Shown: piece by piece, positions 2,145 to 27,791 of the stretch
How positions within the stretch are numbered: the first letter of the stretch is position 1
How the letters are laid out: every line of letters begins with the position of its first letter
Virus record (IMG/VR): IMGVR_UViG_3300043425_000245
Length of the DNA: 27,791 nt
DNA from: a virus
Taxonomy: Duplodnaviria; Heunggongvirae; Uroviricota; Caudoviricetes
Reading direction: 5' to 3' (one strand)
Notes under the pieces: generated by a model
What the model was told of the DNA's origin: nothing
The model's input: the letters and a program-made list of their open reading frames with translations, nothing else
Databases searched by the model: none
Program-made: the position numbers and the translations under genes

Positions 2145-3173
2145 ATGTTATACATTGACGTCAAATATGCCTCCATTCTTGGAGCGCAGCTAAGAAACTT
2201 CAGACAGGTTAAACCGTACACTTGGAACTTCTCGTGTCCAGTGTGTGGTGACAGCTCAACCAAGAAAACAAAGGCACGTGGTTACATCCTAAACTTCAAG
2301 GGTGGTCTGACTTATAAGTGTCACAACTGTGGTTTGTCTTGCAACTTTGGTAACTTACTGAAGCGTGTTAATGCAAGCCTGTATGATGAGTATGTGTTGG
2401 AACGTTACAAAGAAAACGCATCCAAGTATACTGATCACAAGGACGTTGGTAAATTCATCCCCGAAACTAAAGCACCTGCTGTGCTTGAATGGGAAGATGA
2501 TGTTCTTTCGTCTGTTCATAGACTCGATCGTTTAGATCGCAGTCACCCAGCGGTAAAGTACGCACTGAACCGTAAAATCCCAGAAGATAAGTTGAACCTT
2601 CTTTACTTCGCTCCGAAGTTCAAGAAGTTTGTAAACTCATTTCAACCTAAATTTGAAGAGCCTATTCAGGGTGACCATCCTCGTATGATCATCCCGTATT
2701 TTAACAAACATGGTAAATGTTTTGCCATCGGTGCGCGAGCATACGGCGACGAGACGCCTAAGTATTACACCATCAAAGTTGGTGAAGAAGTGGAGAAAAT
2801 ATATGGACTTGACAGAGTTGACTACTCAAAACGAATTTACGTGGTGGAAGGACCAATCGACAGTTTGTTTCTTCCGAATGCAATCGCTGTTTCAGGAGCA
2901 AGTTTTGATACCCCTATCATTCGTCAGCTTCTCACTAATGCAACGCTTGTAATGGATAACGAACCAAGAAATAAAGACATTGTCCGCCAGCTTGGTAAAT
3001 ATATTGACCTTGGTTATAACGTTGTTATGTATCCAGATACAGTGGAAGAAAAAGACATTAATGACATGATCAAGGCTGGAAGAACCCCAAGTGAGGTTTT
3101 GAACCTCATAAATACAAATACCTTCGCAGGTATGGAAGCTAAATTGAAATTCGCAGATTGGAAAAAAGTATGA
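2145..3173 (+). CDS. 61: T4 gp61-like DNA primase
   Basis: Zn ribbon CPVCGDS...CHNC; TOPRIM motifs VVEGPIDSLF, DNEPRN and KDIND; ATG 2145 preferred over TTG 2133. Confidence 0.95.
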   Translation: MLYIDVKYASILGAQLRNFRQVKPYTWNFSCPVCGDSSTKKTKARGYILNFKGGLTYKCHNCGLSCNFGNLLKRVNASLYDEYVLERYKENASKYTDHKDVGKFIPETKAPAVLEWEDDVLSSVHRLDRLDRSHPAVKYALNRKIPEDKLNLLYFAPKFKKFVNSFQPKFEEPIQGDHPRMIIPYFNKHGKCFAIGARAYGDETPKYYTIKVGEEVEKIYGLDRVDYSKRIYVVEGPIDSLFLPNAIAVSGASFDTPIIRQLLTNATLVMDNEPRNKDIVRQLGKYIDLGYNVVMYPDTVEEKDINDMIKAGRTPSEVLNLINTNTFAGMEAKLKFADWKKV

Positions 3174-3838
3174 AAGTTAAATTAATTAGTTACTCTAAAC
3201 CCGCACGTGGTATGTATGATGAAGGGTTGACCGATGCACAGGAGCTTATTGCATTCTGCGCTAGAGTTAGCAACCCATCTAACCAATTTAATATGGACAC
3301 AGCTGATAAGTTAATCAAGTATCTTATCAAACACCAACACTGGTCTCCACTTGAAATGGTCTCAGCATGCCTAGAGATCGAAACTACTCGTGATATCGCT
3401 CGACAGATTCTTCGTCACCGTTCATTCTCATTCCAAGAGTTCAGCCAACGTTATGCTGATCCAACTAAGGACTTAGACTTTGTCCTAAGAGAAGCTAGAC
3501 TACAAGACCAGAAGAACCGTCAAAACTCCATCCACACTAATGACGTTGCCCTAAAAGCGTGGTGGGATGCTAAGCAAAAGTTTCTAATTGATTATGTCAA
3601 GGCGACTTATGCTGAAGCTATTGAAAAGGGTATTGCTAAAGAACAAGCACGTGCTATCTTACCAGAAGGTAATACAGTAAGTCGCTTATACATGAATGGT
3701 ACAATCCGCAGTTGGATTCACTACATTCAACTCCGTAAAGAAAACGGTACACAAGAAGAACATAGAGACGTCGCTCTAGAGTGTGCAAAAGCTATTGCTG
3801 AAGCCTTCCCTATGGTAGACGACATTATCAATAATTAA
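3170..3838 (+). CDS. thyX: Flavin-dependent thymidylate synthase ThyX
   Basis: QILRHRSFSFQEFSQRY signature; ATGA overlap with the primase stop. Confidence 0.95.
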   Translation: MKVKLISYSKPARGMYDEGLTDAQELIAFCARVSNPSNQFNMDTADKLIKYLIKHQHWSPLEMVSACLEIETTRDIARQILRHRSFSFQEFSQRYADPTKDLDFVLREARLQDQKNRQNSIHTNDVALKAWWDAKQKFLIDYVKATYAEAIEKGIAKEQARAILPEGNTVSRLYMNGTIRSWIHYIQLRKENGTQEEHRDVALECAKAIAEAFPMVDDIINN

Positions 3839-26756: not shown

Positions 26757-26785
26757 TTGACTTTTAATCAAACCTGTGGTATAAT
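26757..26785 (+). promoter_or_regulatory. Sigma70-type promoter
   Basis: TTGACT-17-TATAAT with TGTGG immediately before the -10. Confidence 0.8.
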
Positions 26786-26788
26786 TCT

Positions 26789-26796
26789 TATAAATA
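26789..26796 (+). promoter_or_regulatory. T4 late promoter consensus TATAAATA
   Basis: Exact match, intergenic. Confidence 0.6.
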
Positions 26797-26797
26797 G

Positions 26798-26827
26798 TTC
26801 TACTGGAGTTGAAAGACTCTGGTAGAA
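26798..26827 (+). other. 12-bp RNA hairpin without U-tract
   Basis: TTCTACTGGAGT-TGAAAG-ACTCTGGTAGAA (two G-U pairs). Confidence 0.65.
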
Positions 26828-26842
26828 AATTCTAAAAATCGC

Positions 26843-26871
26843 TTTACTTTAATTAGGAAATAGGGTATAAT
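26843..26871 (+). promoter_or_regulatory. Sigma70-type promoter with predicted leaderless start at the leader ORF
   Basis: TTTACT-TTAATTAGGAAATAGGG-TATAAT; ATG at the predicted +1 (26878). Confidence 0.85.
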
Positions 26872-26877
26872 TCTTCT

Positions 26878-27018
26878 ATGAACTCGAAATTGTTAAATTC
26901 CAGAATGCATAAACAGCTTCCGCAAGTAGCTGCATGGAATTGCACACGCCCAGAGTTTACAGAAGGCTCAGGATATGCGATTGAAAGCGATACTGGGGGT
27001 TTTGGTAAGTTGATGTAA
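26878..27018 (+). CDS. Putative attenuator leader peptide (46 aa)
   Basis: MNSKLLNSRMHKQLPQVAAWNCTRPEFTEGSGYAIESDTGGFGKLM*; all 20 amino acids, 37 distinct codons. Confidence 0.72.
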   Translation: MNSKLLNSRMHKQLPQVAAWNCTRPEFTEGSGYAIESDTGGFGKLM

Positions 27019-27050
27019 CGATACGTCTAACTTCTATTTACCAAAACCCC
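26996..27050 (+). promoter_or_regulatory. Antiterminator hairpin
   Basis: GGGGTTTTGGTAA (26996-27008) is the exact reverse complement of TTACCAAAACCCC (27038-27050), which includes the terminator 5' arm. Confidence 0.78.
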
Positions 27051-27081
27051 GAAGATGAAAATCTCGGGGTTTTTTGTTTTT
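27043..27081 (+). terminator. Intrinsic terminator (attenuator)
   Basis: AAAACCCCGA(A)GAT-GAAA-ATCTCGGGGTTTTTTGTTTTT. Confidence 0.9.
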
Positions 27082-27097
27082 AGCGATCAAAAATCGC

Positions 27098-27126
27098 TTG
27101 ACTTAAATTAGGAACTGCGTTATAAT
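27098..27126 (+). promoter_or_regulatory. Sigma70-type promoter for the tRNA array
   Basis: TTGACT-17-TATAAT. Confidence 0.82.
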
Positions 27127-27253: not shown

Positions 27254-27327
27254 TCCTCCATGGTGTAACGGTAGCACAACGGGCTTTGAACTCGTTAGAA
27301 TTGGTTCGATTCCAATTGGGGGTGCCA
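27254..27327 (+). tRNA. tRNA-Gln (UUG)
   Basis: Cloverleaf; anticodon arm ACGGG-CTTTGAA-CTCGT; TTCGA T-loop; encoded CCA; U1:U72 mismatch. Confidence 0.9.
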
Positions 27328-27334
27328 AACAAAA

Positions 27335-27420
27335 GCACACTGCAGCTGAGGCTAGGCTGTTATGTGGAGCATAGCTGGATCAATAGTATCTGGTCATCGG
27401 TTCAATTCCGATAAGTGTGC
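27335..27420 (+). ncRNA. tRNA-like RNA (class II, Ser-GGA-like), atypical, no CCA
   Basis: GCACACT/AGTGTGC acceptor; D-like arm; GGA in the loop; long variable arm; ATCGG-TTCAATT-CCGAT T-arm. Confidence 0.55.
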
Positions 27421-27451
27421 TTTTGTTTGGTTCAATTAACAGGAGAAAGTA

Positions 27452-27598
27452 ATGAAACGAAAACAAATGGCTGCTCCTCGTGAACGTAATCAGTTCGTGG
27501 CTGCAGCCCTATTCCGAAAAGCGGGTGCCCACTGTAAATCCAACAAGGCAGTCCGTCGTAAACAAAAAATGGATGTCTTAAAAGGGTTTGTAGTTTAA
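27452..27598 (+). CDS. Small basic protein (48 aa) whose stop codon lies inside tRNA-Lys
   Basis: SD AGGAG 6 nt before ATG; MKRKQMAAPRERNQFVAAALFRKAGAHCKSNKAVRRKQKMDVLKGFVV*. Confidence 0.72.
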   Translation: MKRKQMAAPRERNQFVAAALFRKAGAHCKSNKAVRRKQKMDVLKGFVV

Positions 27599-27660
27599 CG
27601 GCAAAAACATCTGGCTTTTAACCAGTAAGACTCTCGGTTCGAATCCGAGCAGACCCACCA
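27584..27660 (+). tRNA. tRNA-Lys (UUU)
   Basis: GGGTTTG/CAGACCC acceptor; CTGG-CTTTTAA-CCAG; CTCGG-TTCGAAT-CCGAG; ACCA. Confidence 0.92.
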
Positions 27661-27672
27661 AGAATTCTTAGG

Positions 27673-27746
27673 GGTGGGCATAGTGTAGTGGTAGCACCCA
27701 ACTCTGTGAAAGTTGTAGTATGGGATCGTAACCCATTGTTCACCCC
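27673..27746 (+). tRNA. tRNA-His (GUG) with G-1:C73, atypical T-loop, no encoded CCA
   Basis: CAACT-CTGTGAA-AGTTG anticodon arm; T-loop ATCGTAA; 3' end reads CCT. Confidence 0.78.
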
Positions 27747-27759
27747 TAAGAATTTTTAT

Positions 27760-27791
27760 GCCGATGTAGCTCAGTTGGTAGAGCAGCGGAT
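27760..27791 (+). tRNA. 5' half of a tRNA truncated by the window end; isotype unknown
   Basis: GCCGATG-TA-GCTC-AGTTGGTA-GAGC D-arm. Confidence 0.75.

What the first reader, a model, noticed from the sequence alone, without database searches (positions are those of the whole stretch)
26843..27081. 'Codon-sampler' leader peptide attenuator upstream of the phage tRNA array
Seen in sequence: a strong promoter puts +1 on the ATG of a 46-codon ORF. The ORF uses all 20 amino acids by codon 38 and 37 different codons in 46 (36 in the first 41). By hand calculation, uniform random draws would give about 32.5 distinct codons, and a biased genome fewer. It contains all four Gly codons, four Ser codons, and both codons each for Gln, Glu, Lys and Asn. 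Its last codons (GGGGTTTTGGTAA) pair perfectly over 13 bp with the 5' arm of a downstream intrinsic terminator, so the two structures exclude each other. Established: this geometry matches trp/his-type ribosome-mediated attenuators, whose leaders repeat one amino acid. Inference: this leader instead samples almost every tRNA species. Full translation masks the antiterminator and transcription stops. Stalling from loss of any charged tRNA (starvation, anticodon nucleases such as PrrC or PARIS AriB, or general translation arrest) allows read-through into the phage tRNAs. I do not know of this being described, but cannot search the literature. Caveat: a second promoter (27098) lies downstream of the terminator, so attenuation would add to basal expression rather than gate it.
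Basis: partly seen in the sequence, partly recalled or inferred. Interest (0 to 1): 0.93.

Follow-up and report, generated by a model that had tools for sequence, protein, structure and literature searches.

The report
All-amino-acid leader switch before phage tRNAs
A tiny translated gene that spells out all 20 amino acids sits inside a switchable transcription stop signal just before this phage's tRNA genes, so the phage probably makes extra tRNA when ribosomes read that test gene too slowly.

Summary
A promoter lies 6 nt before the ATG of a 46-codon ORF (26878-27018). The ORF uses 37 distinct codons and all 20 amino acids. Real-gene 46-codon windows here average 27.6 distinct codons (maximum 36; P about 5e-4). 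Nucleotides 26996-27008 pair over 13 bp with 27038-27050, which overlaps the 5' arm of a strong terminator.

Comparative data support the reading. 21 distinct relatives keep the ORF. Its four indel sites are all 3 nt, and omega is 0.25 in frame against 0.86 and 2.19 out of frame. The antiterminator hairpin covaries. Every relative with enough downstream sequence sits just before a tRNA array that starts with tRNA-Gln.

A second peptide family (EYRTP type, 37 ORFs of 32-44 codons) has no detectable homology but occupies the same position with the same switch. 23 of its 37 members hold all 20 amino acids and 12 hold 19.

Best reading: a three-segment, ribosome-mediated attenuator that senses general decoding speed.

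Caveats:
- There is no experimental evidence.
- Diversity is mainly in amino acids rather than codons.
- The only Asp codon lies too close to the switch to be sensed.
- Promoter P3 follows the terminator.

I found no publication describing this. This scan has noted the same kind of element on other phage DNA. The closest known system is the mycobacterial whiB7 uORF attenuator.

The parts
26757..26785 (+). Promoter P1 (TTGACT-17-TATAAT, TG-extended), upstream tandem promoter
   Evidence: Conserved in relatives.
26798..26827 (+). Short hairpin just downstream of P1. It would be a 5' stem-loop on P1 transcripts that run into the leader ORF.
   Evidence: Read. Compensatory changes in L083, L085 and L094 seen by eye.
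26843..26871 (+). Promoter P2 (TTTACT-17-TATAAT). It places +1 on or next to the A of the ATG.
   Evidence: The hexamers, the 6-7 nt spacing to the ATG and a mostly pyrimidine spacer are conserved in all close relatives.
26878..27018 (+). Leader ORF: 46 codons plus stop, leaderless, 37 distinct codons, all 20 amino acids
   Evidence: Coding is supported by omega 0.25 in frame against 0.86 and 2.19 out of frame and by four indel sites that are all 3 nt.
26878..26982 (+). Inferred sensing range, codons 1-35. A ribosome stalled here leaves segment A free. It holds 19 amino-acid kinds; Asp is missing.
   Evidence: Geometry calculation. This is an inference.
26996..27008 (+). Segment A: 5' arm of the antiterminator, inside codons 40-45 (GGFGK)
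27009..27031 (+). Apical helices of the antiterminator hairpin. They contain the stop codon (27016-27018).
   Evidence: five pairs have compensatory changes. Indels are confined to the loop.
27038..27050 (+). Segment B: 3' arm of the antiterminator. Its last 8 nt (27043-27050) are also the 5' arm of the terminator.
27043..27080 (+). Intrinsic terminator: stem 27043-27052 with 27064-27073, then UUUUUUGUUUU
   Evidence: -17.4 kcal/mol, z = -3.8; 98.5% of cells paired, one compensatory pair.
27098..27126 (+). Promoter P3 (TTGACT-17-TATAAT), the basal promoter of the tRNA array
   Evidence: Conserved in relatives.
27254..27791 (+). Start of the tRNA array (Gln-UUG, Lys-UUU, His-GUG, ...). At least 22 tRNAs on the identical contig.
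   Evidence: (L081).

Best explanation
This is a ribosome-mediated (leader-peptide) transcription attenuator at the head of a large phage tRNA array.

**Proposed mechanism (inferred).**
1. Promoter P2 makes a leaderless mRNA that starts at the AUG of a 46-codon ORF.
2. The 3' end of the ORF (segment A, 26996-27008) can pair with segment B (27038-27050) to form a -27 kcal/mol hairpin.
3. That hairpin sequesters 8 nt of the 5' arm of the intrinsic terminator (B:C, -17 kcal/mol).
4. If a ribosome has reached the last roughly 10 codons or the stop codon when RNA polymerase transcribes B and C, segment A is masked. The terminator then forms and the transcript ends near 27075-27080.
5. If the ribosome is absent or late, A:B forms first. 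Polymerase then reads through across P3 into the tRNA genes.

**Why the composition matters.** The ORF carries nearly every amino acid, most only once or twice. A delay in decoding almost any codon class before about codon 35 would therefore raise read-through. Possible causes are loss of a charged tRNA, tRNA cleavage by a host nuclease, or general translation arrest. Read-through adds to the basal transcription from P3.

**Shown here.** The ORF is real and its reading frame is under selection. The two structures exist, exclude each other and covary. The link to tRNA arrays and the near-complete amino-acid set are conserved across two unrelated peptide families.

**Inferred.** The position of +1, the kinetic coupling between ribosome and polymerase, the direction of the response, and its biological trigger.
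For: **Translation**
- Omega is 0.25 in frame against 0.86 and 2.19 in the other two frames.
- All four indel sites inside the ORF are 3 nt, whereas indels after the stop are 1-4 nt.
- The ORF is intact in 21 distinct close variants.
- In the distant family the same ORF is started either leaderless (TATAAT + 6 nt + ATG) or by GGAG + GTG/TTG. The Pro codon of EYRTP shows all four third bases.

**Switch**
- The antiterminator hairpin is 96.7% paired, with 5 compensatory pairs; 0 of 500 shuffles reach it.
- The terminator is 98.5% paired.
- Energies are -26.8 (antiterminator) and -17.4 kcal/mol (terminator). The two overall conformers lie within about 3 kcal/mol of each other.
- In all 39 family members, 5-9 nt of the terminator 5' arm pair with the ORF's 3' end. 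The distance from the stop codon to that arm is 23-31 nt.
- Cognate A:B duplexes average -20.3 kcal/mol against -15.4 for non-cognate pairs; permutation gave 0 of 10,000.

**Context**
- Every relative with enough downstream sequence has a tRNA array beginning Gln-Lys-His-Phe-Ile directly downstream. This includes one with an ORF inserted in between.
- EYRTP-type members have tRNA-Gln, or in one case (L157) tRNA-Ser, 135-370 nt downstream wherever enough sequence is held.
- This phage carries at least 22 tRNAs.

**Composition**
- The ORF has 37 of 46 distinct codons, P about 5e-4.
- All 21 close variants keep all 20 amino acids.
- Among EYRTP-type ORFs of 32-44 codons, 23 of 37 hold 20 kinds and 12 hold 19. 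The expectation is 15.4 +/- 1.6, with P(20) about 0.001.
- Permuting alignment columns lowers completeness from 0.61 to 0.23 (0 of 5000 permutations reach the observed value). For example, His appears near the N-terminus mostly when the WAH His is lost.
- The two peptide families are not detectably homologous (hhalign probability 0.3%).

**Other**
- The peptide has no predicted fold (pLDDT 55) and matches no Pfam or PHROG family.
- Precedent: in the whiB7 uORF attenuator a single Trp codon suffices to sense Trp deprivation, and loss of the start codon raises read-through (PMC10274678).
Against: - There is no transcript, ribosome or reporter data.
- A consensus promoter (P3) lies 20 nt after the terminator, so read-through can only add to basal expression. 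It might even interfere with P3.
- By geometry, the sole Asp codon (38) cannot give read-through. In the EYRTP family, on average about 17 amino-acid kinds lie in the strict sensing range; Trp, His, Val or Ala often lie outside it. Whole-ORF completeness is therefore not fully explained by the simple stall model.
- 14 of 37 distant members lack 1-3 amino acids. L030 lacks Cys although its array has tRNA-Cys.
- In many members Met occurs only as the initiator.
- The peptide is conserved within subfamilies, which also fits a trans-acting peptide.
- Codons 5-13 are invariant at every position for an unknown reason.
- Family members are related, so the shuffle and permutation P values overstate independence.
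Confidence: 0.6

Rival explanations
1. This is a plain early 'moron-like' cassette: a promoter, a small-protein gene and a terminator. The 44-47 aa peptide acts in trans, for example on a host target. The A:B pairing has no regulatory role, and the position before the tRNA array is only inherited gene order.
For: - The amino-acid sequence is under purifying selection (omega 0.25), with conserved motifs (WNC[TS]RPEF, YAIESD, GGFGK).
- The cassette has its own promoter and terminator.
- A leader peptide can have a trans function (peTrpL, PMC7298713; abstract seen).
Against: - It does not explain why the ORF's 3' end pairs with the terminator 5' arm in all 39 members with covariation.
- It does not explain why two non-homologous peptides at the same site both carry about all 20 amino acids.
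- There is no predicted fold (pLDDT 55) and no family match.
- Upstream neighbours vary while the tRNA array downstream is constant.
Confidence: 0.2
2. The functional product is the roughly 200-nt terminated RNA, acting as a small RNA or a dual-function RNA. This would be analogous to attenuator-derived sRNAs or to T4's stable RNAs near its tRNA genes. The ORF would be secondary.
For: - Nucleotide conservation is far above that of the flanks, and higher than in the neighbouring tRNA-Gln.
- Codons 5-13 are invariant at all three positions.
- The whole transcript folds better than shuffles (z = -3.6).
- T4 has rnaC and rnaD next to its tRNAs.
- rnTrpL is a precedent for an attenuator-derived sRNA (PMC6614838; abstract seen).
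Against: - There are frame-specific selection and in-frame indels.
- The start-signal type switches while the ORF is kept.
- The 5' helices predicted by folding show no covariation, and several are broken in relatives (my reading).
- No Rfam family matches.
Confidence: 0.12
3. This is coincidence. The ORF and the 13-bp pairing arise by chance because the terminator 3' arm (GGGGTTTT) resembles any G-run/T-run, and the codon diversity is a cherry-picked outlier.
For:
- Under uniform codon draws, 37 of 46 distinct codons is only about 2 sd above the mean (my estimate).
Against: - No real or spurious ORF in the window reaches 37 codons or 20 amino acids.
- All features are conserved and covary in dozens of diverged relatives.
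Confidence: 0.03

Closest known systems
whiB7 (wblC) uORF transcription attenuator of mycobacteria and other Actinobacteria (PMC10274678)
   Same: - A translated upstream ORF of mixed composition. [quoted passage not shown]
- Stalling favours an antiterminator over a terminator.
- Depletion of many different amino acids, tRNAs or synthetases induces read-through.
- One codon of an amino acid is enough to sense it.
- Loss of the start codon raises read-through, as a three-segment design predicts.
   Different: - It regulates a stress transcription factor in a cell, not tRNA genes in a phage.
- The whiB7 uORF is Ala-enriched and variable in length.
- There is no sequence or family relationship.
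- In the phage element, near-complete amino-acid sets in 32-47 codons appear to be the selected property.
Classical leader-peptide attenuators of amino-acid operons (trpL, hisL, pheL, leuL, thrL, ilvL); own knowledge
   Same: - A short translated leader ORF.
- An intrinsic terminator before the regulated genes.
- A mutually exclusive antiterminator.
- Ribosome position decides which structure forms.
   Different: - The classical leaders have runs of one or a few cognate codons and a four-segment fold with a 1:2 pause or anti-antiterminator hairpin. With that fold, no translation gives termination.
- The phage element has no codon runs and three segments, so no translation should give read-through.
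- Its target is a tRNA array.
Leaderless polycysteine short ORF attenuators of mycobacteria (bioRxiv 10.1101/834739; abstract seen)
   Same: A leaderless mRNA whose first ORF is a short regulatory ORF that controls downstream operon genes in response to amino-acid supply.
   Different: They are specific for Cys and belong to cellular operons. I read only the abstract and did not check the mechanism in detail.
T-box riboswitches (own knowledge)
   Same: The functional analogy is that transcription read-through responds to tRNA charging status.
   Different: T-boxes bind one uncharged tRNA directly, without translation, and control synthetase or amino-acid genes. No T-box or any other Rfam family matched here.
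Leader-ORF/terminator units before phage tRNA arrays noted earlier in this scan (for example e1-5378334, e1-5388380, e1-5373171, e1-3450868)
   Same: They share the same logic and position. Several are also described as all-amino-acid leaders. One shares sequence words with the EYRTP-type element that I retrieved.
   Different: They are unpublished AI notes on other genomes. Many describe leaders matched to smaller tRNA blocks rather than complete sets.

Membership tests
Ribosome-mediated leader-peptide transcription attenuators (trp/his class) | Short ORF in the leader that is actually translated | tested here: met
   Comparative evidence only. Omega is 0.25 in frame against 0.86 and 2.19 out of frame. 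The indels are in frame. Leaderless and SD starts are interchanged while the ORF is kept.
Ribosome-mediated leader-peptide transcription attenuators (trp/his class) | Intrinsic terminator between the leader ORF and the regulated genes | tested here: met
   The stem plus U-run is at 27043-27080, -17.4 kcal/mol. It is conserved.
Ribosome-mediated leader-peptide transcription attenuators (trp/his class) | Antiterminator structure mutually exclusive with the terminator | tested here: met
   The 26996-27050 hairpin shares 27043-27050 with the terminator. Covariation is shown, and the arrangement is present in 39 of 39 members.
Ribosome-mediated leader-peptide transcription attenuators (trp/his class) | Ribosome position on the ORF selects the fold in vivo | not testable with these tools
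   The geometry is compatible. The stop codon lies inside the hairpin, and the distance from stop to segment B is 23-31 nt. No expression data are available.
Ribosome-mediated leader-peptide transcription attenuators (trp/his class) | Runs or strong enrichment of codons for the regulating amino acid | tested here: not met
   All 20 amino acids are present and there are no runs.
Ribosome-mediated leader-peptide transcription attenuators (trp/his class) | Four-segment fold with a 1:2 pause / anti-antiterminator hairpin | tested here: inconclusive
   A 7-bp invariant hairpin (26896-26902 with 26935-26941) exists, but it does not compete with segment A. Its inner helices are broken in relatives (my reading).
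Ribosome-mediated leader-peptide transcription attenuators (trp/his class) | Downstream genes are amino-acid biosynthesis or synthetase genes | tested here: not met
   Downstream lie a promoter and at least 22 tRNA genes.
whiB7-type broad-sensing uORF attenuator | uORF of mixed composition, so that many amino acids or tRNAs can be sensed | tested here: met
   20 of 20 amino acids are present, 19 of them within codons 1-35. The comparison is with PMC10274678. Only composition was tested, not function.
whiB7-type broad-sensing uORF attenuator | Homology, Ala enrichment, control of whiB7 | tested here: not met
   The ORF has 3 Ala in 46 residues. It is a phage element upstream of tRNAs with no family match.
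Any curated RNA family (Rfam 15, including T-box and known leaders) | Covariance-model score at or above the gathering threshold | tested here: not met
   Only tRNAs pass. The best other hit over the element is the rimP leader at 22.6 bits against a threshold of 47, E = 0.86.
Small phage protein gene (moron-type cassette) | Own promoter and terminator around one ORF | tested here: met
Small phage protein gene (moron-type cassette) | Product is a folded or family-assignable protein | tested here: inconclusive
   AF2 gives pLDDT 55, pTM 0.14 and no secondary structure. There is no Pfam or PHROG hit. A short peptide with a shallow alignment can fail to be predicted for technical reasons.

The most novel reading that the evidence does not exclude
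Large uncultured phages, apparently T4-like (that label rests on an earlier scan note plus my partial check), run a feedback loop on tRNA supply. A minimal 'pangram' leader peptide is kept by selection to contain about every amino acid. It reports the decoding speed of all codon classes to a terminator/antiterminator switch. Loss of any charged tRNA, for instance through host anticodon nucleases or decay of host tRNA during infection, then boosts transcription of the phage's own tRNA array. This would be a new regulatory target (tRNA genes) and a new sensing logic for leader-peptide attenuation. It would also be a built-in counter-defence sensor.
Probability: 0.45. Interest if true: 0.9.

Novelty: new variant of a known kind. 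Interest (0 to 1): 0.82.

Why it matters
How phages regulate their tRNA genes is largely unknown. Phage tRNAs are currently discussed as a remedy for codon mismatch, for decay of host tRNA and for tRNA-cleaving defence systems.

A translation-speed sensor wired to the tRNA array would show that phages measure decoding capacity and respond to it. It would extend leader-peptide attenuation from amino-acid and stress genes to tRNA genes.

It would also supply a compact, portable sensor of general translation capacity for synthetic biology.

The amino-acid completeness of a 32-47 codon ORF is an unusual, easily searchable signature. It could be used to find more such switches.

Tried and rejected
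- **Cultured-phage relatives.** A DNA search of cultured phages with the region found no match. tblastn of both peptide types found only chance hits at E >= 0.1. One hit next to tRNA-Phe in T5-like phages lies on the wrong strand of a tRNA gene and was rejected.\n- **Rfam.** Nothing but tRNAs passed.\n- **Pfam and PHROGs.** No family matched the peptide.\n- **Whole genome and sequencing runs.** Neither was available.\n- **5' helices.** The helices of the MFE fold (GAACUC/GAGUUU and the inner AUGCA/UGCAU) are not supported. Relatives break them without compensation (my reading).\n- **Completeness test in the close subfamily.** The column-permutation test is uninformative there because the permuted sets also keep all 20 amino acids.\n- **Strict mirror.** The idea that leader composition equals array repertoire fails for L030, which has no Cys codon although its array has tRNA-Cys. 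It cannot be tested further on truncated contigs.\n- **T4.** T4 has no such cassette annotated before its tRNA-Gln.\n- **More leader cassettes inside this phage's array.** None was obvious.\n- **Codon sampling in the strict sense.** Synonymous diversification is not general in the distant family.

Full report
**1. What is in the window**

The window is the early, nucleotide-metabolism region of a large phage. It encodes primase, thymidylate synthase, NrdA/NrdB, NMNAT-Nudix, NAMPT, an exonuclease, dCMP deaminase and rubrerythrin.

After a small rubredoxin-like ORF come three tandem sigma-70-type promoters:
- P1 at 26757-26785
- P2 at 26843-26871
- P3 at 27098-26126 is a mis-typing to avoid: P3 is at 27098-27126

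A tRNA array then starts with Gln, Lys and His. On a contig identical to the window over this region it continues to at least 22 tRNAs (L081).

P2's -10 element ends 6 nt before ATG 26878. Those six bases are all pyrimidines and there is no Shine-Dalgarno sequence. The mRNA is therefore most simply leaderless. This is an inference, since +1 has not been mapped.

The ORF (26878-27018) encodes MNSKLLNSRMHKQLPQVAAWNCTRPEFTEGSGYAIESDTGGFGKLM.

**2. The observation checked**

| Null | Mean distinct codons | Result |
|---|---|---|
| 5901 real-gene 46-codon windows of this window | 27.6 (sd 2.6, maximum 36) | none reaches 37 |
| Multinomial draws from the phage's codon usage | 29.0 | P(>=37) = 5e-4 |
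| 45 spurious ORFs of at least 46 codons | 27.9 | none reaches 37 codons or 20 amino acids |
| Codons drawn given the amino-acid sequence | 32.0 | P = 0.008 |

Nucleotides 26996-27008 are perfectly complementary to 27038-27050. The last 8 nt of that second segment form the 5' arm of the terminator.
- The large hairpin alone folds at -26.8 kcal/mol (z = -5.8).
- The terminator alone folds at -17.4 kcal/mol.
- Over the whole stretch, the best terminator-containing fold (-30.4) and the antiterminator fold lie within about 3 kcal/mol of each other.

The element is thus bistable. The antiterminator arms are transcribed first.

**3. Close relatives**

Searches of viral and metagenome contigs and of the protein collection gave 21 distinct close variants.

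*Conservation.* The ORF-to-terminator stretch is far better conserved than its flanks. It is even better conserved than the adjacent tRNA-Gln.

*Coding signals.*
- The ORF is intact in all but one aberrant contig (L102).
- All four indel sites inside it are 3 nt, whereas indels after the stop are 1-4 nt.
- A codon model gives omega 0.25 in frame, against 0.86 and 2.19 in the shifted frames.
- The promoter hexamers and the 6-7 nt spacing to the ATG are conserved.

*Structure.*
- The antiterminator hairpin is 96.7% paired.
- Five pairs in its apical helix carry compensatory changes; 0 of 500 shuffles reach this.
- An A-to-G change in three sequences keeps both alternative helices through G-U pairs.

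*Context.* Every relative with enough downstream sequence has an array beginning Gln-Lys-His-Phe-Ile directly downstream. In one relative an extra ORF is inserted in between. The upstream neighbours differ between relatives.

*Composition.* All 21 variants keep all 20 amino acids and have 33-38 distinct codons.

**4. A second, distant family at the same place**

Upstream of tRNA-Gln in other phage contigs I noticed a different small ORF with the core EYRTPFIGSDNQSWAH. A pattern search then yielded 37 distinct ORFs, 33 distinct peptides, of 32-44 codons.

Each has the same layout: promoter, ORF, pairing of the ORF's 3' end with the terminator 5' arm, terminator, next promoter, then tRNA-Gln (in one member, L157, tRNA-Ser) 135-370 nt downstream wherever enough sequence is held.

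*Translation signals.* The start is leaderless in some members (TATAAT + 6 nt + ATG). In others it is GGAG followed by GTG or TTG. The Pro codon of EYRTP shows all four third bases. Both features argue for translation.

*Conserved switch.*
- In all 39 members tested, 5-9 nt of the terminator 5' arm pair with the ORF end.
- The stop codon lies 23-31 nt before that arm.
- The A and B segments differ between lineages but stay complementary. Examples are GGGTCTTGT/ACAAGACCC against GGGTCTTAT/ATAAGACCC.
- Cognate A:B duplexes average -20.3 kcal/mol against -15.4 for non-cognate pairs (0 of 10,000 permutations).

*Homology.* The peptide profile is not detectably homologous to the window's family (hhalign probability 0.3%). 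The P3 region downstream is alike in the two groups (my reading).

**5. The amino-acid set**

Of the 37 distant ORFs, 23 contain all 20 amino acids, 12 contain 19, one contains 18 and one contains 17.

For 35 residues of this phage's proteins the expectation is 15.4 +/- 1.6 kinds. P(20) is about 0.0006-0.0014 and P(>=19) about 0.013-0.018.

Permuting residues within alignment columns lowers the mean number of kinds from 19.52 to 18.78 +/- 0.12. It lowers the all-20 fraction from 0.61 to 0.23, and 0 of 5000 permutations reach the observed values. Variable positions therefore complement each other.
- His sits near the N-terminus mostly in sequences that have lost the WAH His.
- Cys occupies different positions in different subgroups.

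Relatedness inflates these P values, but the direction is clear.

The excess is mostly in amino acids. Given the peptide sequence, codon diversification has median P = 0.09 in the distant family, against 0.008 in the window ORF.

**6. Mechanism and its limits**

The fold has three segments. A ribosome on the last roughly 10 codons or at the stop codon masks A, so B pairs with C and transcription ends. A late or absent ribosome lets A:B form, and polymerase reads through.

Taking the ribosome's leading edge as about 11 nt beyond the A-site codon, stalls at codons 1-35 leave A free. Those codons hold 19 kinds of amino acid. The only Asp (codon 38) is out of range.

In the distant family the strict range holds about 17 kinds. 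Trp, His, Val or Ala often lie outside it. The simple stall model therefore does not account for whole-ORF completeness. This is the main open point.

Two further limits apply. P3 directly after the terminator means read-through adds to basal transcription rather than gating it. No expression data could be obtained.

**7. Rival explanations**

*A trans-acting small protein.* This fits the peptide conservation. It does not explain the covarying switch or the shared completeness of two unrelated peptides. AlphaFold gives no fold (pLDDT 55).

*A functional terminated sRNA or dual-function RNA.* This cannot be excluded. Codons 5-13 are invariant at all three positions and remain unexplained.

*Chance.* The comparative data exclude it.

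**8. What is known**

I found no publication describing leader-peptide control of phage tRNA arrays. T4 has no such cassette annotated before its tRNA-Gln.

The nearest described system is the whiB7 uORF attenuator (PMC10274678).
- One Trp codon suffices to sense Trp deprivation.
- Loss of the start codon raises read-through.

Earlier notes of this scan report the same kind of element on other phage DNA, including all-amino-acid leaders. They are unpublished AI notes. I used them as leads, and one of them pointed me to the whiB7 paper.

**9. Verdict**

The element is a new variant of a known kind, ribosome-mediated attenuation. It has a new target (tRNA genes) and a pan-amino-acid leader.

Noticed in passing
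window 26757-26830: Promoter P1 is followed at once by a 30-nt hairpin (26798-27827 would be wrong; the hairpin is 26798-26827). Its stem changes by compensatory substitutions in relatives (L083, L085, L094), while the flanks TAGTTCTAC...GTAGAAAA stay fixed. No U-run follows. It may be a protective 5' stem-loop on P1 transcripts that run into the leader ORF. It is absent from the EYRTP-type family.
   Followed up: partly
window 27082-27103; L094 3195-3220; L048 6996-7025: A short inverted repeat lies just upstream of, or overlapping, the -35 hexamer of P3 in each lineage. The forms are AGCGAT...ATCGCT in the window, GTCAAG...CTTGAC in close relatives, and TGTTGTAA...TTACAACA in the EYRTP type. 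It could be an operator, a processing site or a hairpin in read-through RNA.
   Followed up: no
window 26890-26918 (codons 5-13): GTGTTAAATTCCAGAATGCATAAACAGCT is invariant at all three codon positions in nearly all 21 close variants. Its partner TGGAATT (26935-26941) is invariant too. This nucleotide-level constraint is unexplained; it might be a pause hairpin or a binding site.
   Followed up: partly
window 27452-27598: A 48-aa basic ORF with a strong Shine-Dalgarno sequence has its last codons and stop inside tRNA-Lys. It is conserved in relatives (a 48-aa gene is called in L113 and L117; the same sequence is in L094). It has no Pfam hit and only a weak PHROG hit (phrog_25811, E = 0.0075).
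   Followed up: partly
window 27325-27430: A tRNA-like stretch with a T-arm-like GGTTCAATTCC lies between tRNA-Gln and the basic ORF. ARAGORN and Rfam do not call it.
   Followed up: no
L093 about 2900-3400 (same contig as L087): In one relative an ORF (MDIKEKNKEYY..., with a CxxC and a DFHHIDP motif, possibly an HNH-type endonuclease by eye) is inserted between the terminator and tRNA-Gln. It replaces P3.
   Followed up: no
L102 about 2630-2800: In one metagenome contig the sequence after GGFGK diverges completely into a Gly-rich reading frame with no terminator. This may be a recombinant or a chimeric assembly.
   Followed up: no
L081 5911-6579, 6804-7286, 8814-9572: Protein genes interrupt the tRNA array of this phage: a 222-aa ORF, a 160-aa ORF and a 252-aa ORF. 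Extra promoters lie at L081 7540-7568 and 7757-7785. I saw no further leader-type cassette.
   Followed up: partly
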